From NCBI GenBank assembly GCA_964482515.1, contig CAYZXT010000009.1, positions 16,251-80,250 of the forward strand: a stretch of DNA of 64,000 bases, given 5' to 3'. Position 1 is the first letter of the stretch; the number at the start of each line of letters is the position of its first letter. The position numbers were made by a program, and so were the translations under genes. Shown here piece by piece: positions 16,819-61,326 of the stretch. The stretch comes from an uncultured Elusimicrobia bacterium (GTDB lineage: Bacteria; Elusimicrobiota; Elusimicrobia; FEN-1173). Under the pieces are notes generated by a model. The model ran no database searches, had not been told where the DNA came from, and was given only the letters and a program-made list of their open reading frames with translations.

Positions 16819-16856
16819 AAAACTGCCACAGCTTGCGGCAGAATTAGGTGAACATT

Positions 16857-17942: not shown

Positions 17943-18011
17943 TGACCCCGTTGGCCCGTTTCTTTGGTTACTTTCTTTCGGGCACGCGAAAGAAAGTGAC
18001 ATAATGTCCGC

Positions 18012-18983: not shown

Positions 18984-19004
18984 GTTTTTGATGTCATTCC
19001 GGCG

Positions 19005-19088
19005 CCTTGCCGCTAGGCATGGTCCCTCTTTGTAAGAAGGGGGGTAGGGTGAGGGTGGGCATTTATCGTGGCACAGCCCGGCCAAATT
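19005..19088 (+). repeat. Dispersed island repeat, copy B
   Basis: CCTTGCCGCTAGGCATGGTCCCTCTTTGTAAGAAGGGG ... TGGCACAGCCCGGCCAAATT. It starts 22 nt after the S1/P1 stop. Confidence 0.75.
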
Positions 19089-19190
19089 TCCTAATATGGC
19101 GAAGTGGTTTTCAGACGGAAACAGCGAGGGCGTCTTGAGGGAATCATGGGGCGCGTGAGGTTTGTTTTGGGAAATGATTAGGAGGATTGT

Positions 19191-45651: not shown

Positions 45652-45685
45652 TGGAATTCTCCTTGTTCCCCCCGAGGGGATATGA

Positions 45686-45925
45686 AATAAAAAACCCACT
45701 TCCAACGCGGAAATGGGTAACGGAGAATCAAACGCCGTAGATGCCGGCGGCCTCCCTATAAATAGGAACAACGCTACCGGCGAGCCCTTCCCGCGAAGGA
45801 AAATCTACCTTTTAGTCGACCGGACTTAGACGCGTTTGCGCGCGCCCATTACCGTTGCGGGGCAGTCCCGGAATCACACCGGGTTCCTCTAAAAGGGAGT
45901 GAGCGAAAGAACTGGCCTGAGTATG
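45686..45925 (-). ncRNA. Cobalamin riboswitch with a terminator expression platform
   Basis: The minus strand reads ...AGAGGAACCCGGTGTGATTCCGGGACTGCCCCGCAACGGTAATGGG...AAGTCCGGTCGAC...GCGGGAAGGG... (the conserved AGGGAA/GGTG.GA.TCC/CCCGC.AC.GTAA core plus a B12-box-like segment). It is followed by CCCATTTCC-gcgt-TGGAAGTGGG-TTTTTTA, and then the receptor gene. Confidence 0.75.
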
Positions 45926-47408: not shown

Positions 47409-50400
47409 GACTTTCCGACATATCCATCAAGAACCCCGTCTTCGCCTGGATGCTGATGATCGGCATGATCCTGTTCGGGATCATCGGCTTCACGCAGATC
47501 GGCAAGAGCATGCTGCCGGACGTGGATTTCCCGGTGCTCACCATCTCCACGAAATGGGAAGGCGCCTCGCCCGAGGTGATGGAGACGGAAGTGGTGGACA
47601 CGATCGAAGACTCCATGACGTCGGTGAAGGGCGTCAAGAAGATTTCGTCCGTCACCCGCCAGGGCCAGGCCATGATCACCATCGAGTTCGAGCTCAAGAC
47701 CGACGTGGACGTGGCGCTCCAGGAAGTGCAGAGCAAGATCTCCCAGACCCAGTACGAGCTTCCCAAGGACATGGACCCGCCGATCATCAGCAAGATCAAC
47801 CCCGACGACCAGCCGTTCATGTGGATCTCCCTCTCCGGCGACCGCCCGGTGCGGGACATGATGGAGTACGTCAACGACGACCTGAAGGACAAGTTCACCA
47901 CCATCCCGGGCGTGGGCGACATCTTCCTGGGCGGGTTCATCGAACCGTCCGTCCGCGTCTGGCTCGATCCGGAAAAGATGCGCCAGCGCGAGATCACCGT
48001 GGACGACGTCCTCGCCGCTCTGCGCAACGAGCACACCGAGCTTCCGGCGGGATATCTGGCCACCCAGGAAAAAGAATGGAACCTGCGGGTCATGGGCGAA
48101 GCCCAGAGCCTCGAAGATTTGGAGAACCTCATCATTTCGGACCGGAGCGGCCGGCCCATCTACACGCCGTTCCGCTTGAAGGACGTCGCGGAGATCGAGG
48201 ACGGGCTGTCCGATCCCCGCGGCATGTCGCGTGTCAACGCGCGCCCGGCGGTCGGGCTCGGGATCCTGAAACAGCGCAACGCGAACATGGTGGACGTGGG
48301 CACGCGGGTCAAGGCGCGGGTCGAGGAACTGCAAAGCACCCTGCCCAAGGGGATGATCCTGGCCGTCAACTACGACGGGACCAAGTTCGTCGAAGACTCG
48401 ACCGAGGAACTGAACTTCAACCTCATCCTGGCCGCGGTCCTCACGTCCCTCATCTGCTGGCTGTTCCTCGGGTCCTGGAGCTCGGCGGTCAACATCATCC
48501 TGGCGATCCCCACGTCGATCCTGGCGACCTTCATCGTCCTCTATTTCCTCGGCTACACGCAGAACACCTTCACGCTGCTCGGGCTGACGCTCGTCATCGG
48601 CATCGTGGTGGACGACGCCATCATGGTGCTGGAGAACATCGTGCGCCACCGCGAGGAGGGGGAGTCCCAGGTCCACGCCGCCCTCCTGGGCGCGCGGGAG
48701 ATCTATTTCCCGGCCATGGCCGCGTCCGTGGCCATCCTGGCGATCTTCGTGCCGGTGCTGTTCGTCAAAGGCGTGATCGGCAAATACTTCATGCAGTTCG
48801 GCGTCACGATCTCGGCGGCCGTCATGTTCTCGCTGCTGGAGGCGCTGACGCTGGCGCCCATGCGCTGCGCGCAGTTCCTGAAGGTCGGCGAGCACCGCGG
48901 GCCGTCGAAATGGGTGGACAACGCCGTGGAGTGGATGACCGTGAAGTACAAGCAGGTCCTGTCCTGGATATTCGATCCGGCCGCCGCCGGCCACGGGCCC
49001 CGGAACGTCCCGACGAAGACGTATTCGTTCTTCATGACGCTCGTCCTGGCCGCCATCGCCCTCGGCGCCGGTCTGGCGTTGAACGCCGGGATCTTCATGG
49101 CCGGGCTGAAACTTTTCCACGTCGAAAAACCGATGCCGTGGGCCGTGGGCCTGGCCGTGGCACACATGATGTTCTGGCCGGTCTTCGTTTCCTGGAGGCA
49201 CCATCGCTTCAGCCTCTGGAAGCCCTACTGGGGTTTCTTCACCGCGATCTATCGCCACATGACGGACCGCCCAGTCGTGATCGTGACCGCGGCATCGTTC
49301 ATCTTCCTCGCGTCGCTGTCGCTCTTCGGGGTCATTAAAAAGGAACTGATGCCGTCCCAGGACCAGAGCATGCTCCTGGTCTCGCTCGAAACGCCCGTGG
49401 GGTCGTCCCTCCAATTCACCGACGATACCTTCAAGAAAGCCGAGGACTACATCCTGAAGCGCGGCGAGGTGGAGCGCTACTACACGGCGGTGGGCGGTTT
49501 TGAGGGCGGAGAGATCAACTCCGGCATGATCTTCGTCACTTTGAAGCAGCCGAAGGAACGCCCGGTCCCGCAGGGGCGCAAGAAGCCGTTTTCCCAGTCG
49601 GAACTGATGGCCGAGTTCCGGCGCGACCTGGGCGCGATCCAGGGCGTTTCGAAGGCGTTGTTGATCGACCTTTCGCAGGGCGGCAATGACGCGGGCAGCG
49701 GTTTCCCCGTCGAGTTCACCCTTCAGGGGCGCGACTGGGGCCAGCTGGCCGACCTCAGCGAAAAGTTGCAGGAAAAGATGAAGGCGTCGGGCATGATGGT
49801 GGACGTGAACTCGAACTACAAGCTCGGCATGCCGGAGGTGCAGATCTGGCCCGACCGGCAGGAAGCCGCGCTCCGCGGCGTGAGCGTCGCCTCCATCGGC
49901 AACGCGGTGAACGCGACCCTGGGCGGCGTCCGCGCCGGAAAGTTTTCCAAGGGCGGCCACCGCAACGACATCCGCGTGCGCTTCAAGCCCGTCGACCGGA
50001 CGAAGAAGGAAGACATCGGCAAGATTTTGGTCCGGAACAACCGCGGCCAGGTCGTGCCGCTGCCTCAGGTCGTGAACGTGACCGAGAAGCAGAGCCTGCT
50101 CAGCATCACGCGGCAGAACCGTTCCCGCGCCATCACGCTCTACGCCAACGTCGCCCCGGGGAAATCCCAGGCCGAGGCACTGGCGGCGGTGAAGCAGATG
50201 GGGAAGGAGCTTCCCGAGGGCGTCCGGCTCGTCCCGTCGGGCGCGGCCGAGACGTTCCAGGAGGCCTTCGTGGGCCTCGTGTTCGCGCTGGTCCTGGGGG
50301 TCATCGTGGCCTACATGGTCCTGGGCGCGCAGTTCAACAGTTTCATCCACCCCGTTTTGGTTTTGATCGCCCTGCCCTTCAGCGTCACGGGCGCGGTTCT

Positions 50401-50821
50401 GGCCCTGGTGATCGGGAACCAGTCCCTCAACATGTTCAGCATGATCGGCCTCGTGCTTTTGATGGGCATCGTGAAGAAGAACTCCATTTTGCTGGTGGAC
50501 TTCACCAACGAGCGGCGGAAGAAAGGCCTTTCCGTCACGGACGCTTTGGTCGACGCCTGCCCGATCCGGCTGCGGCCCATCGTCATGACCTCCGTCGCGA
50601 CGATCTCCGCCGCCATACCGCCCGCCCTGGCGCTCGGCCCCGGCGCCGAGACCCGCGTGCCCATGGCGCTGGTGATCATCGGGGGCGTGGCCGTCTCCGC
50701 GTTCCTCACTCTCTTCGTCGTCCCCTGCGCCTACAGCCTCATGGCCCACCTGGAATCGCACAAACACGACAAGCAGCTGAAGGAAGCCCTACGCGAACTG
50801 GGCGAGCTCCCGCCCGCCTAG
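47405..50821 (+). CDS. RND-superfamily efflux transporter (AcrB/HAE1-like) with an extra hydrophobic insert in the central cytoplasmic linker
   Basis: MRLSDISIKNPVFAWMLMIGMILFG...; it has the typical RND TM and porter pattern, and an ATGA overlap with the TolC-like stop. At 1138 aa it includes an extra segment of roughly 90 aa (about 48970-49265) with two hydrophobic stretches. Confidence 0.9.
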   Translation: MRLSDISIKNPVFAWMLMIGMILFGIIGFTQIGKSMLPDVDFPVLTISTKWEGASPEVMETEVVDTIEDSMTSVKGVKKISSVTRQGQAMITIEFELKTDVDVALQEVQSKISQTQYELPKDMDPPIISKINPDDQPFMWISLSGDRPVRDMMEYVNDDLKDKFTTIPGVGDIFLGGFIEPSVRVWLDPEKMRQREITVDDVLAALRNEHTELPAGYLATQEKEWNLRVMGEAQSLEDLENLIISDRSGRPIYTPFRLKDVAEIEDGLSDPRGMSRVNARPAVGLGILKQRNANMVDVGTRVKARVEELQSTLPKGMILAVNYDGTKFVEDSTEELNFNLILAAVLTSLICWLFLGSWSSAVNIILAIPTSILATFIVLYFLGYTQNTFTLLGLTLVIGIVVDDAIMVLENIVRHREEGESQVHAALLGAREIYFPAMAASVAILAIFVPVLFVKGVIGKYFMQFGVTISAAVMFSLLEALTLAPMRCAQFLKVGEHRGPSKWVDNAVEWMTVKYKQVLSWIFDPAAAGHGPRNVPTKTYSFFMTLVLAAIALGAGLALNAGIFMAGLKLFHVEKPMPWAVGLAVAHMMFWPVFVSWRHHRFSLWKPYWGFFTAIYRHMTDRPVVIVTAASFIFLASLSLFGVIKKELMPSQDQSMLLVSLETPVGSSLQFTDDTFKKAEDYILKRGEVERYYTAVGGFEGGEINSGMIFVTLKQPKERPVPQGRKKPFSQSELMAEFRRDLGAIQGVSKALLIDLSQGGNDAGSGFPVEFTLQGRDWGQLADLSEKLQEKMKASGMMVDVNSNYKLGMPEVQIWPDRQEAALRGVSVASIGNAVNATLGGVRAGKFSKGGHRNDIRVRFKPVDRTKKEDIGKILVRNNRGQVVPLPQVVNVTEKQSLLSITRQNRSRAITLYANVAPGKSQAEALAAVKQMGKELPEGVRLVPSGAAETFQEAFVGLVFALVLGVIVAYMVLGAQFNSFIHPVLVLIALPFSVTGAVLALVIGNQSLNMFSMIGLVLLMGIVKKNSILLVDFTNERRKKGLSVTDALVDACPIRLRPIVMTSVATISAAIPPALALGPGAETRVPMALVIIGGVAVSAFLTLFVVPCAYSLMAHLESHKHDKQLKEALRELGELPPA

Positions 50822-50935
50822 CCGGCTTCCCATCCATTACGGGCCGCGACGCCTTTCCGACGGAGGTTTGACATCGTCGACGGAAAGCTGTCTAATGTAC
50901 TGGACAAAGGTTCGACCTATTCGCCGACAAGAACG

Positions 50936-50972
50936 CCCAGGGAGGTGGTTTGTCCTGGGTTTGTTTTATTTT
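50936..50972 (+). terminator. Intrinsic terminator after the RND gene, or attenuator ahead of the pelD-like gene
   Basis: CCCAGGG-loop-(T)CCTGGG followed by TTTGTTTTATTTT. Confidence 0.55.
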
Positions 50973-51005
50973 CAGGCGGCGGAACAATTTGATGCGGAGG
51001 AATGA

Positions 51006-52400
51006 ATGCGTCCCTTTCGGATGAGAAGTCTGCTCGACAGCCTGTTGTTTCTGGGGATCGCCACCGCCCTCAATTACGCCTGGCTGATCAACAACCCCGC
51101 TTTCCGCGATTGGCCCTGGCACCCGTACCTGATGATCATCGCCCTCATCGGTTTGTTCTACGGCTTCTGGGAAAGCCTCGCCTGTCTCTGCCTCTGCGCC
51201 CTGTTCTATACCACGCAGTTGACGGTCCTGGGCATGCCTCTGGAGGCGATCTTCGCCGGCCAGGACGCCCGGAACCTTTTCGCTTTCCTTCTGGCTTCTC
51301 TTTTCTTCGGCGAAACGGGCGAGCTTTACAGACGGAACATCGAAATGTCCCGCGAACGCGCCCTCGCGGCCGAGGCCGCGAAGAACAAAACCGCCGACGA
51401 GAACCAAAGCCTTTGGGAAGTCAACCGCGAGCTGCAGGAGCGCGTGCGTTTCATGGAGTCCCACCTGACCACGCTGCGGGAGACGTCGGACCGGCTTCAG
51501 TCGCTTGACGAGCGGAATGTCCTGGACGGCGCGCTGGAATTCCTGATGAAGATGACCGGGGCCGAGGGCGTGTCCCTGTATCTGCTGGACGGGAAGAACA
51601 ACGCTTTCTGGCGGCAGGCATCTATCGGCAAATCCCCTGAGCCGGCGAACCCGGTTTCCGTCCCCGCCGATGCGTTCCCGTTCAACCGGCTCATGCAGAA
51701 GCCGGCCGTCTATTCCGTGCGCGAAAAACCGGACCGCGCGGGCGGCGGGTCCGCATTGAGGTGGATGGCCGCCATGCCGCTGCTGCGGCGGGGCATGCCG
51801 GAAGGCGTCTTCTTCGTGGAGACCATGCCGCTCCTCCGTTTGACCGAGCAGCTTTTACAGGACATGGAAGCCGTTTCCGAGGTCGTCAACCGCTGCGTGG
51901 CCAACGCGCAGGTCTTCCAGGCTAAGACCGAGTCCGCCCCGGCGGGCGGCGTGCTTGTGTCCGGGGACCTGTTCCGCGATCTCGTCGATAAGGAACTGAT
52001 GCGGACCCGCCGCCATAAATCCGCGGCCAGCCTTTTGAGTTTCCGGATCAACGGTTACGAAGGCCTGCGCGAAAGGATGGGCGAGGACGTGGCGCGCTTC
52101 ATCCTCGACCGCGTCATTCAGATCGCCGGCAGGAACAAACGACAGACCGATGTGCTTTGCCACCTCGGCGCGGGACAATTTTCCATGCTCATGCCACACA
52201 CATCGCCGGACCAGATCCATCCCTTCATTTACCGGACGCGGGAAGAAACGGCCCAGCTCCCCCTGGACGGTTCATCCGAAGAGCGCGTCGGCCTTTCCTT
52301 CGGCGTCTACGGCCTGGACGAAAAAACCAGCGACGCCGTGGACGTCATCCAGGGCGCGGAGCGCATGCTGAAGGAATCCTTCGAAGGCGGGAACAACTAG
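51006..52400 (+). CDS. pelD: PelD-like c-di-GMP receptor: TM segments, coiled coil, GAF-like domain, degenerate GGDEF domain with intact I-site
   Basis: There are four N-terminal TM helices. The GGDEF-fold C-terminus has GAGQF in place of GG(D/E)EF, and RQTD lies exactly 5 residues upstream (RQTD-VLCHL-GAGQF), i.e. RxxD I-site geometry. It sits at the head of a Pel-like gene set. Confidence 0.65.
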   Translation: MRPFRMRSLLDSLLFLGIATALNYAWLINNPAFRDWPWHPYLMIIALIGLFYGFWESLACLCLCALFYTTQLTVLGMPLEAIFAGQDARNLFAFLLASLFFGETGELYRRNIEMSRERALAAEAAKNKTADENQSLWEVNRELQERVRFMESHLTTLRETSDRLQSLDERNVLDGALEFLMKMTGAEGVSLYLLDGKNNAFWRQASIGKSPEPANPVSVPADAFPFNRLMQKPAVYSVREKPDRAGGGSALRWMAAMPLLRRGMPEGVFFVETMPLLRLTEQLLQDMEAVSEVVNRCVANAQVFQAKTESAPAGGVLVSGDLFRDLVDKELMRTRRHKSAASLLSFRINGYEGLRERMGEDVARFILDRVIQIAGRNKRQTDVLCHLGAGQFSMLMPHTSPDQIHPFIYRTREETAQLPLDGSSEERVGLSFGVYGLDEKTSDAVDVIQGAERMLKESFEGGNN

Positions 52401-52415
52401 AAGGCCAATTCATCC

Positions 52416-53081
52416 ATGACGGCCCAAACCCCCACCCTTAAAACCCATAAAAAGATGGGATTGGACATCCTGCCCTACCGGATCCTCGTGCGGCACTGGA
52501 GCCCGAAAGAGCGCATGCGTTTGAACCAGGCGCTTTACGACAGCGGCCACGCCGAGGCGAGTCGGATCCTGCACGAATCCCTGGGCGCGCGGGAAGAGCC
52601 GGTCCGTCTGTTCGCGGCCCAGGCCCTGGAGTTCATCTCGACGCGGCGCTTCGCGGCCATCGAGTCCCTGCGCGCGGCGCTGCGCAAGACGCCGAACGAC
52701 GCGTCCCTTCGCCTGGAGATCGCCGACCGGTTGAAAGAGTACGCGGAGGAAGGCGTTTTCGTGGATTCGATCCGCCACCATTTTTTCCGCGAAGCCGCGG
52801 AGCATTTGTCTTTGGCCCTGGCGAAATCGCCGGAGGCGCCGGCTTTCCTGTTCCGGCTCGGAGAGCTCCATTTCCTTTTGGGCGAGAACGCGGCGGCCGC
52901 GGAACCGCTGGAAAAAATCCTCCCCGACGCCGATGAATATCCCCGGGCCCGCTGGCTGTTGGCGGAGATCGCGTTTAAAGAGGGTCGGATCGATGCTGTC
53001 CGGGCCGAATGCGCGCGGCTGTCCGGTTTCGCGATGCCGCCGGAGATCCATCGGGCGGTTCAGCATTGGAAGGCCCAATGA
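52416..53081 (+). CDS. TPR-like helical-repeat protein (PelE- or PelB-TPR-like)
   Basis: All-helical repeats: ...FLFRLGELHFLLGENAAAAEPLEKILPDADEYPRARWLLAEIAFKEGRIDAV.... The stop overlaps the next start (ATGA). Confidence 0.5.
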   Translation: MTAQTPTLKTHKKMGLDILPYRILVRHWSPKERMRLNQALYDSGHAEASRILHESLGAREEPVRLFAAQALEFISTRRFAAIESLRAALRKTPNDASLRLEIADRLKEYAEEGVFVDSIRHHFFREAAEHLSLALAKSPEAPAFLFRLGELHFLLGENAAAAEPLEKILPDADEYPRARWLLAEIAFKEGRIDAVRAECARLSGFAMPPEIHRAVQHWKAQ

Positions 53082-54298
53082 GCGGCTCCTTCGCCCGCCA
53101 ACGCCGCTGGATCGGTTTTTCCGCGTTCTTCGCCGCGAGCCTGCTGCTTCCCTGGTCCCTGCGCACGCTTTTCTCCCAGCCGTCCGGTCCGCTCGCGGAG
53201 CGGCGGGAATTCCCGCCCGAGCAACCCGTCTGGGGCGATCCTTCCGGCGACGCCGAATCCGTCCGCGCGCGAAATTTCGAAAACAATCTGGCCTGGGTCC
53301 GCGGCGGCACGACCGAGGTCCCGTACGATGGGATCATCGGTCCGCCGGGCGATGGGGCGGAGGATGGATCCGCCGATGCGTCCGGGGCGGCGGACCCCGC
53401 CGTCGCGGAAGTCCTCTCCCCGGGGATATACGCCGCCTACATGCGATCCTGGGACAGCCTGGACATCGTCCGCCGGCGCGACGAGCTGGGGATCTATATT
53501 TATCCGTCTCCCCGGACGCGCCTGGAAGCTTACGTCAGCCGCCACCGTTTCACCGACGACGCCGACGCGATCGAAGGGCACGGCGGCGGGCTGCGGGCGG
53601 CGCAGATCGTCGGCGACCGCGTCTTCCTGGAAGAGGGGATCGGCGTCAACGGCTACGACGGGATCCGCCGGTCGGTCGAAGGGTACGCGCGGGCCGGCTA
53701 TTCGCCGCGGGAAAACCTTTTCCTCAGTTTGGACGCGCGGGTGGAGGACGTGTGGGAGCGCCTGCCCAATATCCGCGACGGGCTCCGTTTGTGGAGCGTC
53801 TCTCCCTATCTGTATTTCTCCTTCCTGACGAACTATTGGGTTTCCGGCTATTGGTCCCTGGGGTATTTCAGCGACCACAACTTCCGCCAGGTGCTCGAGG
53901 GCGAGCTGGGGCGTTTCCTTTCGCGCAAGATCGGGCTCAGCGTTTCGGGCGGCGTGCAGACCTACCAGTTCCGCGAGCCGCGCGGCACCTATTGGACGCC
54001 GTCCTATTACCAATATCTTTTCGGCCGCGTGCGCCTGTCGAAGAATTTCGAAAGCGACATCTGGGAACGCCGCGCGCGGGAGAACTTCCCTCGCCGGATC
54101 GGCTACCTGGCCGAGTACACCGCGGGCACGACCGAAAACCGCGACTTCGACCAGACCCTCCGCGGCGGCCTCTCCTTCCGCCTGTTCGACCGTTGGATCC
54201 TGCGGGCCGAGGCCTACCATCTGAACGCCAACGCGCGGTTCACGTCGGACAACTATTATGAGAACCGCATCGACGGGAGGATCGATTTTGAGTTTTAG
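53078..54298 (+). CDS. Outer-membrane beta-barrel (candidate Pel export porin, PelB-C-terminal analogue)
   Basis: It is taken from ATG 53078: MSGSFARQRRWIGFSAFFAASLLLPWSL.... The second half has alternating aromatic strands, ending ...NRIDGRIDFEF. Confidence 0.5.
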   Translation: MSGSFARQRRWIGFSAFFAASLLLPWSLRTLFSQPSGPLAERREFPPEQPVWGDPSGDAESVRARNFENNLAWVRGGTTEVPYDGIIGPPGDGAEDGSADASGAADPAVAEVLSPGIYAAYMRSWDSLDIVRRRDELGIYIYPSPRTRLEAYVSRHRFTDDADAIEGHGGGLRAAQIVGDRVFLEEGIGVNGYDGIRRSVEGYARAGYSPRENLFLSLDARVEDVWERLPNIRDGLRLWSVSPYLYFSFLTNYWVSGYWSLGYFSDHNFRQVLEGELGRFLSRKIGLSVSGGVQTYQFREPRGTYWTPSYYQYLFGRVRLSKNFESDIWERRARENFPRRIGYLAEYTAGTTENRDFDQTLRGGLSFRLFDRWILRAEAYHLNANARFTSDNYYENRIDGRIDFEF

Positions 54299-54334
54299 AA
54301 ATCAGGGACTAAGAGAATTTTATCCGCTCCTGCT

Positions 54335-54357
54335 CCCTCTCCCTGGAGGGGAGAGGG
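54335..54357. repeat. GC-rich hairpin of the CCCTCTCCC...GGGAGAGGG type
   Basis: CCCTCTCCC-tggag-GGGAGAGGG followed by TCGGGGTGAGGGG. It would translate as PLPGGERVGVRG if read in the track ORF that starts at 54258. Confidence 0.6.
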
Positions 54358-54362
54358 TCGGG

Positions 54363-56531
54363 GTGAGGGGAGTCTTACGGGCGGTCCTTGGTATCGTATT
54401 GCTTGTCTCATTCTTAACCGCACGTGTCGACGCTTTTCCCTCCTCCCCCGACGGATGGCAGGAGATCAAGCGCCGCGTGCTCGTCCTCTACAAAAGCTCC
54501 GAAGGCGATCGTCCGGACTTCAACCGCGCCGCCGGATTGCTGGAGCAGCCCCTCGACAGCCTGGGCCTCGTGGCGGATTATTACGATATCGACGCCGGGT
54601 TCCCGTCGGAGGAAGCGATGTCGCCCTACCGCGGCGTGGTGACCTTCTTCAACGGTCCGTCGATGAAAAATCCGGAAGCCTACGCGGACTGGTTCGCCGG
54701 GCAGGTCCGCGCCGGCCGGCGCATGGTCGTCTTCGGCGATTACGGCGCGTTCACGGACCGCGGGACGGACCGCTTCATCGCGCACAAGGACGTCAACCGG
54801 GCCTTCGGCGCCCTCGGGCTGGAGTATGACGGCTTCTGGGAAGAGCGGACGGGGAACCTCGTGCTGCGGAGCGTCGACAACGAATTCATGGCCTTCGAAG
54901 AGCCCGTCCACGAGAAGGAGCTGAACGAATACATCCTGGTCCGTTCCCGGAACCCGGCCAACCGCGTTTTTCTCTCGGTCGCCCGCGCCGACATGGACGA
55001 CAGCGACAGCGCCTTGGCCGTGGCCACGCCCTGGGGCGGTTATGCCTTTTCGCCGCTCATGCTTTATGACTACCGTCAGGGCGACGTCGCCAAGCAGCGC
55101 TGGCATCTGGACCCCTACAAATTCCTCGCGGAAGCGCTCGGCCTCGGGGACGAGCCGCGGATGGACGCGGCGAGCCTGAACGGCCGCCGGCTGTGGATGG
55201 CGCAGGCGGACGGGGACGGGTTCACGACCTCCGCGCCGGCCAACCGGTTGGCGTCGGAGAACATTCTGGCGGTCCTGAAAAAATATTCGCTGCCCGTCAC
55301 GGCTTCCGTCATCACGGGCGAGCTGGAGGACAATCCCAGGGCCAGGGACGTGGCCCGCGCCGTGTTCGCGCTGCCGAACGCGGAACCGGCGAGCCATTCC
55401 GAGACGCACCCCGTGGATTGGCTGGCCGAGGGCGTCGATCTGAAAAAGGAAATCACGGGTTCCGTCGAAAAGATCGAGACGGACCTTTTGCCAGAGGAGA
55501 AAGAAGTCCGCGTCTTCGCTTGGACCGGCTGGTGTAATCCGGGGATTGAAGCCATGAAAACGGCCCAGGCCGCGGGTCTGGTCACCATGAACGGCCTGCA
55601 AACCACCAACGGGTTCGTGAACCGCTTCGACGCGCTTTATCCGTCCCGCACCTACCTTTCCCCGCTCGTCCGCCGGGTGGGGGATTTCATTCAGTTGAAC
55701 CACCGCGCCGTGAATGATTACGACCTTGCACGGGAATGGAAGAGCCCGGGCGAATACCGGCACATCATCGAGACTTTCCAGGGGACCGTCCGCAACCCGG
55801 AGATCCCCGTCCACGTTTATTTCCACTGGTACAGCGGGGCCGACGTCGCGTCGCTCGCCGCCTTGGACCGGGTATTCCGCTGGAGCGCTTCCCAGGAGAT
55901 CAGCCCCGTCTTCGTCTCGGACTATGCCGACATCGTGACGGACTTCCGTGGCGCGCGGATTTGGCGTTCCGGCCCGGGGCGGTTCATCGTCCGCAACAAC
56001 GGCCATTGCCGCACCGTGGTGTTTTCATCCACGACCTCCGCTGTCGACATGGAACGGTCCAGAGGCGTCCTGGGTTATGCGCCGCGCTTCGGCCAGCTGT
56101 ATGTTTTCCTGGACGAAGGCCGCGAGCATGAGATCGTTCTGACGGAAGAGGAAACGTCCGCTCCGCGCGTGGTATCGGCCTCGGGCTGGCTGGAGAATTG
56201 GAAAGTCGACGGCAGCCGTTATTCTTTCGACATGAGGGCCTACGGTCCGGCGACCGTGACGCTTGCAGGCTTGAACGGTTATTATACGGTGAGCGTCCGT
56301 CCCGAAAAGCGGGCCAAGTCCGTTTCCTATCAAAGGTTCACGCGTAAGACGGAGGACGGCCTTCTCGTTTTGGAATTTTCCGCCGCCGGGCTTTCGCACA
56401 TGACGGTGGAACCGACGGGCGCCGTTTATGCCATGGCGCAGGTGGCGAGCGTCCCCCTGGTGGCGGGGTTCACGTCGATCTACGCGTTTTGGTTTTTATG
56501 GCTGGCGAAGAAACGGCGGAGGGGCCTGTGA
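54363..56531 (+). CDS. Exported polysaccharide deacetylase-like protein (CE4-type motifs) with a C-terminal TM anchor; PelA-deacetylase analogue
   Basis: GTG 54363 gives (M)RGVLRAVLGIVLLVSFLTARVDA (signal peptide). The mid-protein has QADGDGF and ASHSETHP (the D-D and H-S-x-x-H CE4-like motifs). The tail TM is VPLVAGFTSIYAFWFLWLAKKRRRGL. Confidence 0.55.
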   Translation: MRGVLRAVLGIVLLVSFLTARVDAFPSSPDGWQEIKRRVLVLYKSSEGDRPDFNRAAGLLEQPLDSLGLVADYYDIDAGFPSEEAMSPYRGVVTFFNGPSMKNPEAYADWFAGQVRAGRRMVVFGDYGAFTDRGTDRFIAHKDVNRAFGALGLEYDGFWEERTGNLVLRSVDNEFMAFEEPVHEKELNEYILVRSRNPANRVFLSVARADMDDSDSALAVATPWGGYAFSPLMLYDYRQGDVAKQRWHLDPYKFLAEALGLGDEPRMDAASLNGRRLWMAQADGDGFTTSAPANRLASENILAVLKKYSLPVTASVITGELEDNPRARDVARAVFALPNAEPASHSETHPVDWLAEGVDLKKEITGSVEKIETDLLPEEKEVRVFAWTGWCNPGIEAMKTAQAAGLVTMNGLQTTNGFVNRFDALYPSRTYLSPLVRRVGDFIQLNHRAVNDYDLAREWKSPGEYRHIIETFQGTVRNPEIPVHVYFHWYSGADVASLAALDRVFRWSASQEISPVFVSDYADIVTDFRGARIWRSGPGRFIVRNNGHCRTVVFSSTTSAVDMERSRGVLGYAPRFGQLYVFLDEGREHEIVLTEEETSAPRVVSASGWLENWKVDGSRYSFDMRAYGPATVTLAGLNGYYTVSVRPEKRAKSVSYQRFTRKTEDGLLVLEFSAAGLSHMTVEPTGAVYAMAQVASVPLVAGFTSIYAFWFLWLAKKRRRGL

Positions 56532-57943
56532 GGAAAAAGATTTGCTTGATCCTGGAGGGGACCTATCCCTACGTGCGCGGCGGCGTGGGCATGTGGGCCC
56601 ACGACCTGATCCGCCGCTCGCCGCAGCATGACTTCACGGTCGTGGCCGTGACGGATTCGCCCAAGGGTCCGCGGGATGTCCTCTACGAGCTTCCGCCCTA
56701 CGTGCTTGACGTCGTCACAGTGAACCTGAACAAAAAGCTGCCTTCGACCTTGACGGCGACGGCCGCCCCGCGCACTTCCGACAGCGGGCGCTTGGCCCTC
56801 GGCATCGTGGAGACGCTCAAGGAAATGGAAGCGGGCGATTTCAGCGGGCTGGAACGCCTCGTCCAGGAGTGCGACCGGACGACCTTCGCGTTCGCGGACC
56901 TCCTTTTCAACGAAGCGCTCTGGAAGCAATTCGTCGGATACGCTTCACGGCTGGACGGGGAAAACCCCTTCGCGGGATTGTTCTGGACCTGGCAGGTCCT
57001 CTTCGAGACCACGGCGCGGCTGCTGCGCGCGCCCATTCCGGAGGCGGACGTCTACCACAGTGCGTCGACGGGCTACGCGGGGCTGCTCGCCTGCCTGGCG
57101 AAGGTCCGGACCGGCAAGCCCTTCGTCCTTTCCGAGCACGGGCTCTATCTCCAGGAGCGCCAGATGGAACTGGCTTTCCACGGCGTCCTGCGCGGCGCCC
57201 AACGGGAGTTCGTCGAAGGATTTTTCTCCGGCGTGAGCCGCTGGTGCTACGGGCTGGCGGACGAGATCACCTCGCTCTGCGGACCGATCCGCGAGCACCA
57301 GATTTCCCTCGGCGCGGCCCCCGCGAAGACGTTCATCGTCCCCAACGGGATCAACGTGCAGCGCTTCGCTTCCCTGCCGCGCGTCGCGCACGAAGGTTTC
57401 CACATCGGCTTGGTGGGCCGGGTGGCGCCGGTGAAGGACGTGAAGCTGCTCATCTTCGCGGCCAAGGAGCTTTTGTCGCGGATCCCGGAGCTGCGCGTTT
57501 CCATCGCGGGCCCCTCCGCGGACCCCGGCTATTTCCGCGAATGCCAGGAACTGGTTGCGCGGCTCGGCTTGGAGCGCGTGGTGCGCTTCCTGGGTTTCGT
57601 CGACGCGGCGCGGCTCTATCCGGAGCTGGACATGCTGGTGCTCTGCAGCCTGAAGGAAGTGCAGCCCCTGGCCGTTTTGGAAGCCATGGCCGCGCGCATC
57701 CCGGTGGTGGCGACCCAGAGCGGCGGCATTCCGGAGATCCTGGGCGGCATCGGCGCGCTCGTGCCGCCCCGGAACCTGGACGCGCTGGTGAAAACCATCC
57801 GGCGCGTGTACGAGGACAAGGCGATGCGCGAGGTGATGGTGCGCCTGGGCTTCGAGCGGGTCTCCTCGACCTACGCGCACGAAAAAAGTTTGGACCAGTT
57901 CCACCGTTTCTACGCGGCGACGGAACCCGTGGTCCGGGGATAA
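56528..57943 (+). CDS. pelF: PelF-like GT4 glycosyltransferase (DUF3492 N-domain)
   Basis: GTGA overlap start. (M)RKKICLILEGTYPYVRGGVGMWAHDLI is the characteristic PelF N-terminus. The C-terminal GT4 EX7E region is ...SLKEVQPLAVLEAMAARIPVVATQSGGIPEIL. Confidence 0.8.
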   Translation: MRKKICLILEGTYPYVRGGVGMWAHDLIRRSPQHDFTVVAVTDSPKGPRDVLYELPPYVLDVVTVNLNKKLPSTLTATAAPRTSDSGRLALGIVETLKEMEAGDFSGLERLVQECDRTTFAFADLLFNEALWKQFVGYASRLDGENPFAGLFWTWQVLFETTARLLRAPIPEADVYHSASTGYAGLLACLAKVRTGKPFVLSEHGLYLQERQMELAFHGVLRGAQREFVEGFFSGVSRWCYGLADEITSLCGPIREHQISLGAAPAKTFIVPNGINVQRFASLPRVAHEGFHIGLVGRVAPVKDVKLLIFAAKELLSRIPELRVSIAGPSADPGYFRECQELVARLGLERVVRFLGFVDAARLYPELDMLVLCSLKEVQPLAVLEAMAARIPVVATQSGGIPEILGGIGALVPPRNLDALVKTIRRVYEDKAMREVMVRLGFERVSSTYAHEKSLDQFHRFYAATEPVVRG

Positions 57944-57952
57944 GGGGACACC

Positions 57953-59383
57953 ATGGCGGGCGTCGGCATCGAACTGCAGGCATCGTTCCTGAAGCGGCGG
58001 AGTTATCTCCGACTCCTGAAAATTTTCGGCTACGCCACCTCTCTGGCCGGCGGGCCGTGGCTGGTGGCCAGCATCACGGTGGCGCTGCTCTGCGTCTTCG
58101 GGATCAAGCAATATTCCTGGCATGAGATGACGCTCTTCGCCGTGGTCGTGATGTACGCCTTCGCGGGCTCGGTCCTCTTCGTCAGTCCCTTCGCCCTTTC
58201 CTTCGGGCGCTACCTGGCGGACCAGACCTTCGTCGGGCGGCTGAACCAGCGGCGGATGTTCCTGCTGCTCGAGGCCGTGATCGTGCCGCTCGCGGCGGTG
58301 ACGGGGTACTTCGCGGCGCGGCATTTCCTGCCGGACAGCGTGGTCCACGCCAGCGCTTACCGCCTCCTGGCCGCGGCGCTCTTCACGTTTCTCGCGGGGC
58401 TTTGGCCGGTGATGACCTACCTTGATTTCCGGCGTCGGCTGTCGCATCCGATGATCGCCTTCGTGGCCGGATCGCTTGCCGCCCTGGCGAGCTCCTGGTG
58501 GTTCCGGCGATACCTCGACTCCACCGGCTACATGGCCGGGTTCACGTTGGGCATGGGCCTGATCTACGCCGCGCTTTTCTTTTCCGCGCTTCACCGCCCG
58601 GTGGGAGCCGCCCGCGATCTGAAAGCCGAAAAACCTTATCTCGAGGCGGCGCGGCCCAAGTTCGCGGCCCTGATCCTCATCGGCGTCTTCTACAACCTCG
58701 GCATCTGGATGGATAAGTTCGTGATCTGGTCCACGCGCGGGACCGTCGTGTGGCCCGAGAGCCCGCTGCGCGTCCTGCACGTCTACGACATCGCCACCTT
58801 CATGGCCTACCTGCTCCTGATCCCGGGCATCGCCTATTTCCTCCTGGTGGTGGAATCTTCCTTCTACGAAAAATTCCGCGAATACCTCGCCGGCCTGGAG
58901 AGCGATCCCTATCATGAGGTCGAGGAAAAGCGGGCCGGCCTGGTGCGCGGCTTGTTCCGCCAGGCGGCGTACCTCGCCGAACTGCAGGCCATCCTAACGG
59001 TGATCGCGTTTTTCATCGGGCCCGCGCTCTTCCGCACGCTCGGATTACCCGCGGAGGGCGTCCCGATCTACCGCGTGCTCATCTGGGCCGCGTCGTTCCA
59101 GGTGATGTTGTGGATGGGGATCCTCCTGTTGCTTTATTTCGAGTTCCGGCGCGAGGCGTTGCTCGCGGCGGTCGGTTTTTGTTTCGCCAACACCGTTTTG
59201 ACATATGCCAGTCTGAATTCTCCCGGCTGGGTTTTAGGCTGGGGGTACGCGTTGTCTGCGCTGGCCGCCGGCGTCTTCAGCCTATGGGCGCTGCACGTAC
59301 GTCTTAAGGACCTCCACCGGCATATTTTCCGGCTGCACTTCGTGGAGCCCCCGCCGGTCCTCGATGAGAGCGCGCAAGGCTAA
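57953..59383 (+). CDS. pelG: PelG-like polysaccharide export membrane protein
   Basis: MAGVGIELQASFLKRRSYLRLLKIFGYATSLAGGPWLV..., about 12 TM helices, 476 aa. Confidence 0.75.
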   Translation: MAGVGIELQASFLKRRSYLRLLKIFGYATSLAGGPWLVASITVALLCVFGIKQYSWHEMTLFAVVVMYAFAGSVLFVSPFALSFGRYLADQTFVGRLNQRRMFLLLEAVIVPLAAVTGYFAARHFLPDSVVHASAYRLLAAALFTFLAGLWPVMTYLDFRRRLSHPMIAFVAGSLAALASSWWFRRYLDSTGYMAGFTLGMGLIYAALFFSALHRPVGAARDLKAEKPYLEAARPKFAALILIGVFYNLGIWMDKFVIWSTRGTVVWPESPLRVLHVYDIATFMAYLLLIPGIAYFLLVVESSFYEKFREYLAGLESDPYHEVEEKRAGLVRGLFRQAAYLAELQAILTVIAFFIGPALFRTLGLPAEGVPIYRVLIWAASFQVMLWMGILLLLYFEFRREALLAAVGFCFANTVLTYASLNSPGWVLGWGYALSALAAGVFSLWALHVRLKDLHRHIFRLHFVEPPPVLDESAQG

Positions 59384-60314
59384 ACTCGCCGCGGCGTTCC
59401 TGTTTTGCGCTTCGCACCTCGCGGCGGCGCATCCGGCCGCCTCAACTCCTACCCAAAACGCCCCGTCCGACAAACCGGGACCACGACTAGCGTCGACGGC
59501 CTTCGCCTGTTATTACGGCTACGGCCGCCTCGAGGAACTGAAAAATTACCGCCTCGTCGTCCTCCAGCCCTCCGCCTATAATCCGTCCGATATCGCCGCG
59601 CTCAAAGAAGCGGGCGTCACCGTGCTCGCGTACATTTCCCTCGGCGAGGACGAGGAGCTGCGCCGCGGCAACGGGCGCGGCCCCGGCGGCTGGGCGGATT
59701 GGTATCTGGACGAGTTCAAGGGGGCCGGGTTCGCGTACCCGGGCCCGGACGGACAGCCGGACAAGCACGCCGCCTGGGGCTCCTACTACGTGGACCCATC
59801 CCGTTCCGGTTGGAGGAAGCGCGCGCTTCAATCGGCCGAACGATTTAAATCCGTATTTGGGTTCGACGGTCTTTTCTTGGACACGATGCTTCTCCCGCGG
59901 GACGCCTTCCGCGAAAAGACCGAGCGGCGGATGGACAAGGGAATGAAGCGCCTGCTGGCGGAGCTGCGGCGGGATTGGCCCGGCGGATACTTTTTGGGGA
60001 ACAATGCCTGGGAGTTTTTAGAACAGGAGAAGTTGCTCAACGGCGTCATGCTGGAGAGCGCCCTGGGGGAAGACCCCTCCGGCTTCCAAAAGATCGGCCG
60101 TCTGGTCAAAGAGGTTCAGCAATTGAGGCCCTTGGACGCGTTCCTCCTGGAAACAATTTCTCCCGGAGCGGGGGCGAAGGCGGACGCCGTCTGCGCGACT
60201 GCCGATCTCCTGGGTTTTTCGGCCGCCCTCTACTCAGACGACGAGGCAGGCCGGTCGCTGACTGTTTTTCCGTGGAAGACGTGCGGCCCGGGTCCATCCG
60301 CGTTAAAGCGGTGA
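59364..60314 (+). CDS. Exported TIM-barrel glycoside hydrolase (GH114 / PelA-hydrolase-like)
   Basis: Signal peptide MRARKAKLAAAFLFCASHLAAAHP. ...YRLVVLQPSAYNPSDIAALKEAGVTVLAYISLGE...YYVDPSRSGWRKRALQSAERFKSVFGFDGLFLDTM.... It overlaps the pelG-like 3' end by 20 nt. Confidence 0.55.
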   Translation: MRARKAKLAAAFLFCASHLAAAHPAASTPTQNAPSDKPGPRLASTAFACYYGYGRLEELKNYRLVVLQPSAYNPSDIAALKEAGVTVLAYISLGEDEELRRGNGRGPGGWADWYLDEFKGAGFAYPGPDGQPDKHAAWGSYYVDPSRSGWRKRALQSAERFKSVFGFDGLFLDTMLLPRDAFREKTERRMDKGMKRLLAELRRDWPGGYFLGNNAWEFLEQEKLLNGVMLESALGEDPSGFQKIGRLVKEVQQLRPLDAFLLETISPGAGAKADAVCATADLLGFSAALYSDDEAGRSLTVFPWKTCGPGPSALKR

Positions 60315-60434: not shown

Positions 60435-61088
60435 GTGTTGTTTCCTATGAGAGGAATTGTGGACATTTCTGACATAAAAGACGTCTCCGATAAGCAGTTA
60501 GTGGCCGAGGCTCAAAACGGCCAAGAGAGAGCTTTTAGCCGTTTGCAGCAAAGATATCAGGCATCGCTCTTCATTATGGTTTTTCGCCATCTCGGACATC
60601 GGGAAGAGGCGGAAGACGTCGTACAACAGTCCTTCTTGAAAGCCTATCAGCACATCAACGATTTCCGCGGCGAATCTAAATTTTATACATGGCTGTACAC
60701 CATCGCGTTGAACCTTAGCCGCAACCACATACGCCAGCGCCACAGCCGCCGGACGGTTTCTTTGGACGATATGAGTTCCCAGTATGACGGTCCTCCGCCT
60801 CAGTGGATCGAAAAAGGGCCTACTCCGGAAGAGGAAGCCGACCGCCATGCCGACCTTGAAGCCATCCGGGATTCCTTGGAGTGTTTGGGGGAGGAGCAAA
60901 GGACGATCTTCGTTTGGCATTATTTCCAGCAGCTTTCGTTGGATGAGGTCGCCCGGCGCCTCGGCCGTCCCGTGGGGACCGTCAAGGTCTATCTCCATCG
61001 GGCCCGTAAGACAATTTATAAGGCCTTGACCGGCAATGGAGGGAACAAGAAATTTAAAAGCATTCTGTTTGTTGAAAGGACATCTTAG
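60435..61088 (+). CDS. ECF-type sigma-70 family factor
   Basis: Region 2: AEDVVQQSFLKAYQHINDFRGESKFYTWLYTIALNLSRNHIRQ. Region 4: LSLDEVARRLGRPVGTVKVYLHRARKTI. The exact start is uncertain (GTG 60435 or ATG 60447). Confidence 0.85.
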   Translation: MLFPMRGIVDISDIKDVSDKQLVAEAQNGQERAFSRLQQRYQASLFIMVFRHLGHREEAEDVVQQSFLKAYQHINDFRGESKFYTWLYTIALNLSRNHIRQRHSRRTVSLDDMSSQYDGPPPQWIEKGPTPEEEADRHADLEAIRDSLECLGEEQRTIFVWHYFQQLSLDEVARRLGRPVGTVKVYLHRARKTIYKALTGNGGNKKFKSILFVERTS

Positions 61089-61153
61089 TCCCATAGATGT
61101 AATTTTATCGTCGCAGGCGTGTCGAATAAACGGGTTTCAAGGAGCGTATTCGG

Positions 61154-61306
61154 ATGAGTCGAGTCTGGATCATAAGTTTCCTCGCCCTGATCGCCGTCTT
61201 TTTGCCGGTATGGTCGTACAGCCAGAATTGGGGTTATCAGGCCAGCGCCGGTATCGGAGCAATTTTTCTTATCTTCCTGCTCTTGAACAAGTTTCACGTT
61301 ATATGA
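61154..61306 (+). CDS. 50-aa two-TM membrane protein (possible anti-sigma or accessory peptide)
   Basis: AAGGAG lies 8 nt upstream of the ATG. The product is MSRVWIISFLALIAVFLPVWSYSQNWGYQASAGIGAIFLIFLLLNKFHVI*. It is too short for the ORF track. Confidence 0.45.
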   Translation: MSRVWIISFLALIAVFLPVWSYSQNWGYQASAGIGAIFLIFLLLNKFHVI

Positions 61307-61326
61307 CGCTATTTTAGGACGATATC

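What the first reader, a model, noticed from the sequence alone, without database searches (positions are those of the whole stretch)
51006..60314. Rearranged Pel-like exopolysaccharide locus with split PelB-like and PelA-like functions
Seven consecutive + strand genes are coupled by overlaps (ATGA, GTGA, 20 nt):
- a PelD-like receptor (TM, GAF-like, GGDEF fold with GAGQF and an intact RxxD I-site 5 residues upstream)
- a TPR-like protein
- a separate OM beta-barrel
- a CE4-like deacetylase with signal peptide and tail anchor
- PelF-like (the LEGTYPYVRGGV N-terminus)
- PelG-like
- an exported TIM-barrel hydrolase

Relative to the Pseudomonas pelABCDEFG paradigm, the order is D-E-(B porin)-(A deacetylase)-F-G-(A hydrolase). 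The PelA activities are on two proteins, PelB appears split into TPR and porin parts, and no PelC-like lipoprotein is evident. This would be a distinct architectural variant of the Pel system in a diderm.
Basis: partly seen in the sequence, partly recalled or inferred. Interest (0 to 1): 0.5.

Follow-up and report, generated by a model that had tools for sequence, protein, structure and literature searches.

The report
Pel-type biofilm sugar operon, minimal exporter
This is a real seven-gene operon for a Pel-type biofilm polysaccharide in a double-membraned bacterium. It replaces the usual large PelB/PelC outer-membrane exporter with one small stand-alone pore protein, a rare variant seen in a few relatives, two of them from the phylum Elusimicrobiota.

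Summary
Seven tightly packed + strand genes (51006-60314) form one operon, and the same gene order recurs in three complete loci and two contig-truncated ones at 30-46% protein identity.

- **Core:** PelF and PelG pass curated family thresholds.
- **Split PelA:** the 722-aa protein is PelA without its hydrolase domain (CE21 deacetylase, E 1e-51 to Burkholderia PelA). It has a signal peptide and a conserved C-terminal membrane anchor. The last gene is a separate PelA-hydrolase-like enzyme.
- **Receptor:** the first gene has a 4-TM, GAF and degenerate GGDEF layout (GAGQF) with an invariant RxxD I-site.
- **TPR/HEAT protein:** it has no signal peptide or TM helix, and it aligns to the cytoplasmic C-terminal domain of PelE. 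It is therefore not a detached PelB TPR part.
- **Missing parts:** no PelC and no periplasmic TPR scaffold were found.

The barrel family is very rare: five strong representatives among 1.84 billion. I rate this a new variant of a known system. No function has been tested experimentally.

The parts
51006..52400 (+). PelD-like c-di-GMP receptor (464 aa). It has about 4 N-terminal TM helices, a coiled coil, a GAF domain and a degenerate GGDEF domain. The I-site R379-Q-T-D382 lies at 52140-52151; GAGQF, in place of GGDEF, lies at 52167-52181.
   Evidence: Pfam GGDEF 46.6 bits, GAF_3 27.6 bits, weak DUF4118. Alignment to the diguanylate cyclase 3ign places RQTD/GAGQF on RQSD/GGEEF. KRxxD is invariant and the GGDEF motif is degenerate (GAGQF, GNGRL, GSGRF) in three orthologues. 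hhalign to the Cetobacterium PelD-like TM-GAF protein gives 97.4%, E 1e-11. hhalign to Burkholderia PelD gives 56%, E 1e-4, over the full length with the I-sites aligned.
52416..53081 (+). PelE-like soluble TPR/HEAT protein (221 aa), predicted cytoplasmic. It lacks the two N-terminal TM helices of proteobacterial PelE.
   Evidence: Pfam TPR_16 and TPR_19 above threshold, HEAT_2 below. No hydrophobic segment in the Kyte-Doolittle scan. Conserved at 31-40% identity in five other loci. hhalign to residues 156-329 of Burkholderia PelE gives 76%, E 2e-5.
53078..54298 (+). Stand-alone outer-membrane porin (406 aa). It has a signal peptide, an acidic periplasmic extension (residues ~36-114, 53183-53419) and a 16-stranded beta-barrel (residues ~115-406, 53420-54295) that ends in Phe.
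54363..56531 (+). PelA-type deacetylase without a hydrolase domain (722 aa; alternative ATG at 54258). It has a signal peptide, a mixed alpha/beta domain, a CE21 deacetylase domain, a beta-rich domain and a C-terminal TM anchor followed by KKRRR (about 56409-56528). DGD lies at 55209-55217 and H345..H349 at 55395-55409.
   Evidence: The only PDB hit is full-length PelA 9cgy, E 3.7e-40. BLASTP to residues 258-857 of Burkholderia PelA gives 27% identity, E 1e-51. D283, D285, H345, H349 and H488 are invariant in seven homologues; by position they correspond to PaPelA D528, D530, H600, H604 and H761 (PMC12022489). The C-terminal tail is conserved in the window, L003, L006 and L010. There is no BLASTP similarity to a Fusobacteriota DUF2194 protein.
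56528..57943 (+). PelF, a GT4 glycosyltransferase and the putative polymerase (471 aa, GTG start).
   Evidence: NCBIfam NF038011 PelF 276.4 bits (cut-off 100); Pfam DUF3492 208.6 bits plus Glycos_transf_1. tblastn to Burkholderia PelF gives E 2e-63.
57953..59383 (+). PelG, a polytopic inner-membrane protein (476 aa).
   Evidence: Pfam PelG PF16933 298 bits over the full length. About 11-12 hydrophobic segments. tblastn to Burkholderia PelG gives E 1.5e-35.
59364..60314 (+). Exported hydrolase like the PelA hydrolase domain (316 aa, GH114/GH166-like TIM barrel). Putative catalytic D173 is at 59880-59882 and E231 at 60054-60056.
   Evidence: The best PDB hits are the PelA hydrolase domain 5tcb/5tsy (E 2e-11) and full-length PelA 9cgy. 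Pfam GH114 scores 26.4 bits, just under its cut-off of 27. The DT motif is invariant, and the Glu of the (V/M)(L/I)E motif is kept in the four orthologues and the Burkholderia stand-alone enzyme.

Best explanation
This is a complete, probably c-di-GMP-gated, synthase-dependent system for a Pel-type (GalNAc/GalN-like) exopolysaccharide, built for a two-membrane cell with a reduced export apparatus.

Proposed mechanism, all of it inferred:
2. That protein, the soluble PelE-like TPR protein, PelF and PelG form the inner-membrane synthase. PelF polymerises the sugar and the complex moves it across the inner membrane.
3. In the periplasm, a PelA-type CE21 deacetylase partly deacetylates the chain. 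It is tethered to the inner membrane by a C-terminal anchor, not docked on a PelB TPR scaffold.
4. A stand-alone 16-stranded porin of the PelB/PgaA/BcsC structural class carries the polymer across the outer membrane. It works without fused TPR repeats and without PelC. Its conserved acidic N-terminal extension may take over the role of attracting the cationic polymer.
5. A separate exported hydrolase like the PelA hydrolase domain trims the polymer or regulates its amount.

Shown here: the gene content, the homologies, the conserved catalytic and I-site residues, the predicted fold and the conserved gene order.
Against: Nothing was tested experimentally. The polymer is unknown and no GalE-type epimerase lies in the locus. 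The barrel has no sequence similarity to PelB, and its role rests on a predicted structure built from only 12 sequences. The PelD-like GGDEF domain resembles ordinary GGDEF domains more than PelD: Pfam PelD_GGDEF is not hit, and solved PelD structures do not appear even at E<=10. The links to Burkholderia PelD and PelE are only moderate (56% and 76% hhalign probability). The His thought to activate the catalytic base in PelA (PaPelA H526) is Gln in this protein. The role proposed for the acidic extension is speculation.
Confidence: 0.8

Rival explanations
1. The operon makes a polysaccharide that is not Pel. The PelF/PelG-like synthase and the PelA-like modifying enzymes have been recruited for a chemically different polymer, such as another amino-sugar glycan.
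For: Identity to characterised Pel proteins is only 25-32%. The locus holds no UDP-GalNAc epimerase. The CE21 motif 1 His is replaced by Gln. Published work already cautions that some pel-like loci may make unrelated polymers (PMC7112168, section 6).
Against: Both modifying enzymes have PelA as their closest solved relative. PelF passes the NCBIfam equivalog cut-off. B. cereus and P. aeruginosa, which are far apart, make cross-recognised Pel with similarly divergent proteins (PMC7112168).
Confidence: 0.12
2. The barrel is not the polysaccharide exporter. It is a general porin or other outer-membrane protein that merely travels with the operon, and the polymer leaves by another route or stays periplasmic or cell-bound.
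For: There is no sequence match to any exporter family. Beta-barrels of equal strand number can resemble each other structurally without sharing a function. Other diderms with pel loci (Cetobacterium) show no obvious barrel gene in the locus.
Confidence: 0.15
3. The first gene encodes an active or regulatory diguanylate cyclase rather than a PelD-type receptor.
For: The generic GGDEF profile and solved cyclases (WspR, 3ign) match better than PelD does.
Against: The catalytic GG(D/E)EF signature is degenerate in all three orthologues (GAGQF, GNGRL, GSGRF), while RxxD is invariant. The TM-GAF module is homologous to PelD-like proteins of other pel loci. The gene occupies the pelD position.
Confidence: 0.05

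Closest known systems
Pseudomonas aeruginosa pelABCDEFG (canonical Gram-negative Pel system)
   Same: PelF and PelG are clear homologues. The deacetylase is homologous to PelA residues ~258-857 (alpha/beta, CE21 and beta-rich domains). The hydrolase resembles the PelA N-terminal domain. The receptor has the PelD layout with an I-site. The host has two membranes and a 16-stranded export barrel.
   Different: The gene order is D-E-porin-A(DA)-F-G-A(H). PelA is split into two proteins, and the deacetylase carries a C-terminal membrane anchor. There is no PelC and no ~19-repeat periplasmic TPR domain. The barrel is unrelated to PelB_C by sequence. The PelE-like protein lacks TM helices. The GGDEF domain is closer to canonical GGDEF than to Pfam PelD_GGDEF.
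Gram-positive pelDEA(DA)FG plus separate pelA(H) (Bacillus cereus ATCC 10987; PMC7112168, PMC7890745)
   Same: The core order D-E-A(DA)-F-G is the same. The hydrolase is a separate protein. The deacetylase is membrane-tethered. PelD has a degenerate GGDEF domain with an RxxD motif.
   Different: The host is a diderm, and a porin gene sits between pelE and pelA(DA). By sequence the deacetylase is of the proteobacterial PelA type, not the DUF2194 type: no BLASTP match to a DUF2194 protein, and PF09960 is not reached at E<=0.01. The tether is C-terminal rather than an N-terminal helix. The hydrolase gene is co-transcribed at the operon end rather than divergent.
PgaA, BcsC and PelB porin domains (outer-membrane exporters of synthase-dependent exopolysaccharides)
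   Different: There is no fused periplasmic TPR domain; a ~80-residue acidic, mostly disordered extension takes its place. No detectable sequence homology: Pfam PgaA_barrel, BCSC_C and B-barrel_PelB_C are not hit.
Published 'pelB fission' and rearranged pelA operon clades (Bundalovic-Torma et al. 2020, PMC7112194)
   Same: Diderm pel loci in which the export and modification genes are rearranged or split.
   Different: There PelB is described as split, so a TPR part remains. Here no periplasmic TPR protein is encoded in the locus. Elusimicrobiota are not mentioned in that paper, and no paper in the library pairs Elusimicrobia with PelF.

Membership tests
Pel system core (PelF) | GT4 glycosyltransferase with a DUF3492 N-terminal domain that reaches the NCBIfam PelF equivalog cut-off | tested here: met
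   NF038011 276.4 bits against a cut-off of 100; PF11997 208.6 bits
Pel system core (PelG) | Full-length match to Pfam PelG PF16933 above the gathering score | tested here: met
   298.1 bits against 29, residues 1-459
PelD | TM region, GAF domain and degenerate GGDEF domain with an intact RxxD I-site | tested here: met
   Pfam GAF_3 and GGDEF; GAGQF with RQTD five residues upstream; I-site invariant in three orthologues
PelD | Sequence membership: Pfam PelD_GGDEF PF16963, or similarity to solved PelD | tested here: not met
   PF16963 is not hit at E<=0.01, while Burkholderia PelD hits it at 133 bits. No PelD chain appears in the PDB searches, even at E<=10. hhalign to Burkholderia PelD is only 56%, but 97.4% to the TM-GAF part of the Cetobacterium PelD-like protein.
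PelD | Binds c-di-GMP and is required for polymer production | not testable with these tools
   Needs ITC/DRaCALA and genetics
PelE | Inner-membrane protein with two N-terminal TM helices followed by a cytoplasmic TPR-like domain | tested here: not met
   No hydrophobic segment in the 221-aa protein, and none evident in the alignment of its five orthologues. The ORF cannot extend upstream. Only the C-terminal domain aligns to PelE 156-329 (hhalign 76%, E 2e-5).
PelA (CE21 deacetylase) | Catalytic base Asp, metal triad Asp-His-His and catalytic acid His | tested here: met
   D283, D285, H345, H349 and H488 are invariant in seven homologues, and DGDGF and HSxxHP align to PelA. Roles are taken from PMC12022489; H488 is assigned to the catalytic-acid position from its motif context, not from a residue-numbered alignment to PaPelA.
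PelA (CE21 deacetylase) | Motif 1 His (PaPelA H526) proposed to activate the catalytic base | tested here: not met
   The window protein reads QADGDGF, and P0005 also has Q; the other five homologues have H.
PelA (full-length, Gram-negative type) | Hydrolase and deacetylase domains on one soluble periplasmic polypeptide | tested here: not met
   Homology begins at PelA residue ~256. The hydrolase is a separate gene at 59364-60314. A C-terminal TM anchor is present.
PelB | Pfam B-barrel_PelB_C PF24604 and a long periplasmic TPR domain | tested here: not met
   No Pfam hit even at E<=5, whereas Burkholderia PelB scores 226.7 bits. hhalign probability is 0.8%. No secreted TPR protein is encoded in the locus.
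PelB/PgaA/BcsC structural class of exopolysaccharide porins | 16-stranded outer-membrane barrel encoded in a synthase-dependent exopolysaccharide operon | tested here: met
PelC | Small outer-membrane lipoprotein encoded in the pel locus | tested here: not met
   The seven genes leave no room for another. tblastn of Burkholderia PelC against the whole 64-kb window finds nothing at E<=1. It is also absent from L003, L006 and L010.
Gram-positive pelDEA(DA)FG type | Core gene order D-E-A(DA)-F-G with a separate PelA(H) | tested here: met
   The order is kept apart from the inserted porin gene (PMC7112168).
Gram-positive pelDEA(DA)FG type | DUF2194-type PelA(DA) with an N-terminal TM tether, in a monoderm host | tested here: not met
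   PF09960 is not reached at E<=0.01 for the window protein; homologues show only weak hits. BLASTP to the Cetobacterium DUF2194 protein finds nothing. The N-terminus looks like a cleavable signal peptide and the tether is C-terminal. Outer-membrane proteins are encoded nearby.
Pel polysaccharide | Product is partially deacetylated alpha-1,4 GalNAc | not testable with these tools
   Needs chemistry, lectin binding or enzyme sensitivity

The most novel reading that the evidence does not exclude
These bacteria, whose named relatives are Elusimicrobiota, export Pel across the outer membrane by a minimal route that needs neither PelC nor a TPR scaffold. A stand-alone 16-stranded porin with an acidic periplasmic arm replaces PelB plus PelC. 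A C-terminally tail-anchored CE21 deacetylase replaces the docking of PelA on the PelB TPR. Because the locus combines the Gram-positive gene order with proteobacterial-type PelA sequence, it could be an intermediate or ancestral arrangement that links the two published Pel operon types.
Probability: 0.35. Interest if true: 0.65.

Novelty: new variant of a known kind. Interest (0 to 1): 0.47.

Why it matters
In Pseudomonas, Pel export is thought to need a PelC ring, and PelA is thought to be recruited by the PelB TPR domain. A natural system lacking both would show which parts of the outer-membrane machinery are truly required. It also offers a compact seven-gene Pel system for reconstitution. 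The locus extends Pel-type biofilm capacity to a little-studied diderm lineage. Its mix of Gram-positive gene order and Gram-negative-type PelA bears on how the two operon types are related. The porin family has no annotation in Pfam or NCBIfam and could now be labelled.

Tried and rejected
- A word-index homology search with the barrel alone found nothing. A three-sequence profile was needed, then the exhaustive search.
- The first AlphaFold run, with four sequences, was unusable (pLDDT 34). Only the 12-sequence alignment gave a usable model.
- A profile search of the barrel family against PDB sequences gave no hit at E<=10. hhalign against Burkholderia PelB gave 0.8%.
- The search for related loci with the nine-sequence alignment failed for lack of conserved stretches. 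The three-sequence run found only two Elusimicrobiota MAG loci.
- The afdb50 fold library was unavailable.
- Rejected: 'the TPR protein is the detached PelB TPR'. It has no export signal and it aligns to PelE.
- Rejected: 'the deacetylase is the Gram-positive DUF2194 type'.
- Considered: a regulatory attenuator in the leader. A hairpin followed by a U-tract lies ~30 nt upstream of the pelD-like start. It is not found upstream of the L003 or L010 loci, and the fold is no more stable than shuffled sequence. It is most simply the terminator of the upstream efflux genes.
- The taxon of the window itself could not be determined. Elusimicrobiota is known only for two relatives (L007, which is the L003 contig, and L008).
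Full report
**Observation.** The interval 51006-60314 holds seven + strand ORFs. The junctions are tight:

| Junction | Spacing |
|---|---|
| PelD-like to TPR | 15-nt gap |
| TPR to barrel | ATGA overlap (barrel starts at 53078) |
| Barrel to deacetylase | +64 nt with GTG 54363; -41 nt with ATG 54258 |
| Deacetylase to PelF | GTGA overlap (PelF starts at GTG 56528) |
| PelF to PelG | 9-nt gap |
| PelG to hydrolase | 20-nt overlap |

The GTG at 54363 follows GGAGGGGAGAGG and is the start called for the identical database protein P0001. Upstream, the locus is separated from an OEP/AcrB efflux pair by 185 nt. That spacer contains a GC-rich hairpin followed by a U-tract. Downstream come an ECF sigma factor and a histidine kinase, and GC content drops.

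The genes are not chance ORFs. The same seven genes in the same order occur complete in L003/L007, L006 and L010. They also occur on contig-truncated fragments in L009 and L012. Protein identity is 30-46%.

**Core synthase.**
- PelF scores 276 bits on the NCBIfam PelF equivalog (cut-off 100) and has the DUF3492 N-terminal domain.
- PelG matches Pfam PelG over its full length at 298 bits.
- Both are found by tblastn with Burkholderia thailandensis and Cetobacterium Pel proteins.

**PelD-like protein.** It has about four N-terminal hydrophobic helices (weak DUF4118 match), a coiled coil, GAF_3 and GGDEF.
- Alignment with the cyclase 3ign puts RQTD and GAGQF on RQSD and GGEEF.
- In three orthologues KRxxD is invariant, while the catalytic motif is always degenerate: GAGQF, GNGRL or GSGRF. 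That is the signature of a c-di-GMP receptor of the PelD type (PMC7112168).
- By sequence, however, the GGDEF domain is nearer to ordinary cyclases. Pfam PelD_GGDEF is not hit, although Burkholderia PelD hits it at 133 bits. No solved PelD appears even at E<=10.
- Profile comparison gives 56% probability (E 1e-4) over the full length of Burkholderia PelD, with the I-sites aligned. It gives 97.4% (E 1e-11) to the TM-coiled coil-GAF part of the PelD-like protein in the Cetobacterium pel locus.
- I therefore treat it as a PelD counterpart with a less eroded GGDEF domain.

**TPR/HEAT protein.** The 221-aa protein passes TPR_16 and TPR_19. It has no hydrophobic segment or signal peptide, and its ORF cannot be extended upstream. 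It is conserved in five other loci. Its profile aligns to residues 156-329 of the 330-aa Burkholderia PelE (76%, E 2e-5), including a shared DPxExIRL motif and a C-terminal Trp. It is therefore a PelE-like cytoplasmic protein without PelE's membrane helices. It is not a periplasmic fragment of PelB.

**The barrel.**
- *Sequence:* the 406-aa protein has no Pfam, NCBIfam or PDB sequence match. It does not align to PelB.
- *Rarity:* an exhaustive HMMER search of 1.84 billion representatives found only five strong relatives plus four weak ones. Every strong relative whose context I could read lies in the same position of the same operon.
- *Weak relatives:* one of the four is a short barrel protein with a subthreshold PgaA_barrel hit. 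Two are TPR-plus-C-terminal-barrel proteins, one of which sits beside a GT2 synthase. The fourth, P0018 (2974 aa), was not examined.
- *Model:* with 12 sequences AlphaFold2 gave mean pLDDT 73, about 90 across residues 115-406, with 16 strands.
- *Foldseek:* the same four structures come first.
- *Other features:* the protein ends in Phe and has an N-terminal signal sequence. It has a roughly 80-residue, poorly predicted periplasmic extension that is net acidic in all nine family members.
- I conclude that it is a stand-alone member of the structural class of synthase-dependent exopolysaccharide porins. It lacks the fused TPR domain that PelB, PgaA and BcsC all carry.

**Split PelA.**
- The 722-aa protein's only PDB hit is full-length PelA 9cgy (E 3.7e-40). 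BLASTP to Burkholderia PelA covers residues 258-857 at 27% identity (E 1e-51). That span is everything except the N-terminal hydrolase domain.
- The catalytic base, metal triad and catalytic acid are invariant in seven homologues. Residue roles come from PMC12022489, which defines the family as CE21.
- One difference: the motif 1 His (PaPelA H526) is Gln here.
- The N-terminus is a signal peptide. The C-terminus carries a conserved tail, (V/I)xP(T/A/V)(G/T), then a ~20-residue hydrophobic stretch, then an Arg/Lys cluster. It is present in the window, L003, L006 and L010 and absent from more distant homologues. This predicts a periplasmic enzyme anchored in the inner membrane.
- It shows no BLASTP similarity to a bona fide DUF2194 protein. 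So by sequence it is not the Gram-positive PelA(DA) type, even though DUF2194 gives weak hits to some orthologues.
- The last gene encodes an exported TIM-barrel enzyme. Its best solved relatives are PelA hydrolase domains (E 2e-11). The DT motif and the candidate catalytic Glu are conserved.
- A fused version, GH114 plus the deacetylase part (987 aa, P0005), exists elsewhere.

**What is missing.** There is no PelC. The genes leave no space for one, and tblastn of Burkholderia PelC and PelB against the whole window finds nothing meaningful. No secreted TPR protein is encoded in the locus.

**Host.**
- The window encodes a TonB-dependent receptor, an outer-membrane efflux protein and AcrB, so the host is a diderm.
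- The two relatives found in named genomes are Elusimicrobiota MAGs.
- The window's own genome appears to be in NCBI, but I could not retrieve its name. Its phylum therefore remains inferred.

**Comparison with the literature.**
- The order D-E-A(DA)-F-G with a separate hydrolase is the published Gram-positive core (PMC7112168, PMC7890745). Full-length PelA is described as typical of Gram-negatives (PMC12022489).
- 'pelB fission' and pelA rearrangements have been noted in some diderms (PMC7112194).
- PelC is described as an essential ring around PelB in Pseudomonas (PMC12141448).
- Other diderms (Fusobacterium, Cetobacterium) carry DUF2194-type pel loci without an obvious porin gene. Selenomonas is reported only to have PelF and PelG homologues.
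- I found no paper that describes this arrangement or links Elusimicrobia with PelF.

**Verdict.** This is a genuine, conserved Pel-type operon and a new architectural variant.
- The 'split PelA' reading is right.
- The 'split PelB' reading is wrong: the TPR protein is PelE-like, and the PelB scaffold and PelC are absent altogether.
- The mechanism is inferred from homology and a predicted structure. Nothing has been tested experimentally.

Noticed in passing
window 56409-56528; also L003 ~11130-11255, the last ~120 nt of L006 3307-5445, and the last ~120 nt of L010 3738-5882: The deacetylase ends in a conserved three-part tail: (V/I)xP(T/A/V)(G/T), a ~20-residue hydrophobic stretch containing a Trp, then an Arg/Lys cluster. 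The layout recalls sortase or exosortase sorting signals, but no PEP-CTERM or similar model matched. It occurs only in loci that also carry the barrel.
   Followed up: partly
window 55203-55223: CE21 motif 1 reads QADGDGF. The His proposed to activate the catalytic base in PelA (PaPelA H526) is Gln here and in the fused homologue P0005, but His in the other five homologues.
   Followed up: partly
window 36481-37581 (+); L006 9234-10349; L003 15934-17016: A DUF2914 membrane protein in the window is 52% identical to the one directly downstream of the pel-like locus in L006; L003 also has one nearby. In the window it lies 14 kb upstream, so the TonB receptor and efflux genes may have been inserted between them.
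   Followed up: partly
window 50868-50975: A perfect TTGACA box lies ~65 nt upstream of a GC-rich hairpin plus U-tract, which itself ends ~30 nt before the pelD-like start. That leaves no room for a promoter downstream of the terminator-like element. Either transcription reads through it or it acts as a leader. It was not found upstream of the L003 or L010 loci.
   Followed up: partly
window 43729-45922 (-): A cobalamin riboswitch (Rfam RF00174, 32.7 bits) lies directly upstream of a TonB-dependent receptor gene. This is an ordinary B12-uptake arrangement.
   Followed up: no
window 46089-50821 (+): An outer-membrane efflux protein gene overlaps an AcrB-family RND pump gene (1138 aa) by 4 nt. 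No membrane-fusion protein gene lies between or immediately around them.
   Followed up: no
window 16848-21977 (+): A YhcG/DUF1016 PDDEXK nuclease gene and a complete MmeI-family type IIL restriction-modification gene (928 aa) sit in a patch of low GC content (0.45-0.58, against ~0.62 elsewhere). This suggests a horizontally acquired defence island.
   Followed up: no
window 60435-63306 (+): Directly downstream of the operon lie an ECF sigma factor, a 93-aa ORF (possibly an anti-sigma factor) and a PAS/HisKA_2 histidine kinase. GC content drops to ~0.53-0.55. A regulatory link to the pel-like operon was not examined.
   Followed up: no
L005 4913-17063; P0004 context: More distant homologues of the deacetylase sit in different pel-like layouts with large TPR proteins (594-755 aa), a response regulator and a 647-aa HEAT protein upstream of PelF. 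Several further diderm Pel architectures therefore exist in metagenomes.
   Followed up: no
L013 3785-13019 (Cetobacterium somerae plasmid p1): A Fusobacteriota (diderm) pel locus has a hydrolase, a GAF-only PelD-like protein, a DUF2194 protein, a 292-aa unknown, PelF, a 703-aa extended PelG and a 305-aa unknown. No recognisable porin is present, so how such diderms export the polymer is open.
   Followed up: partly
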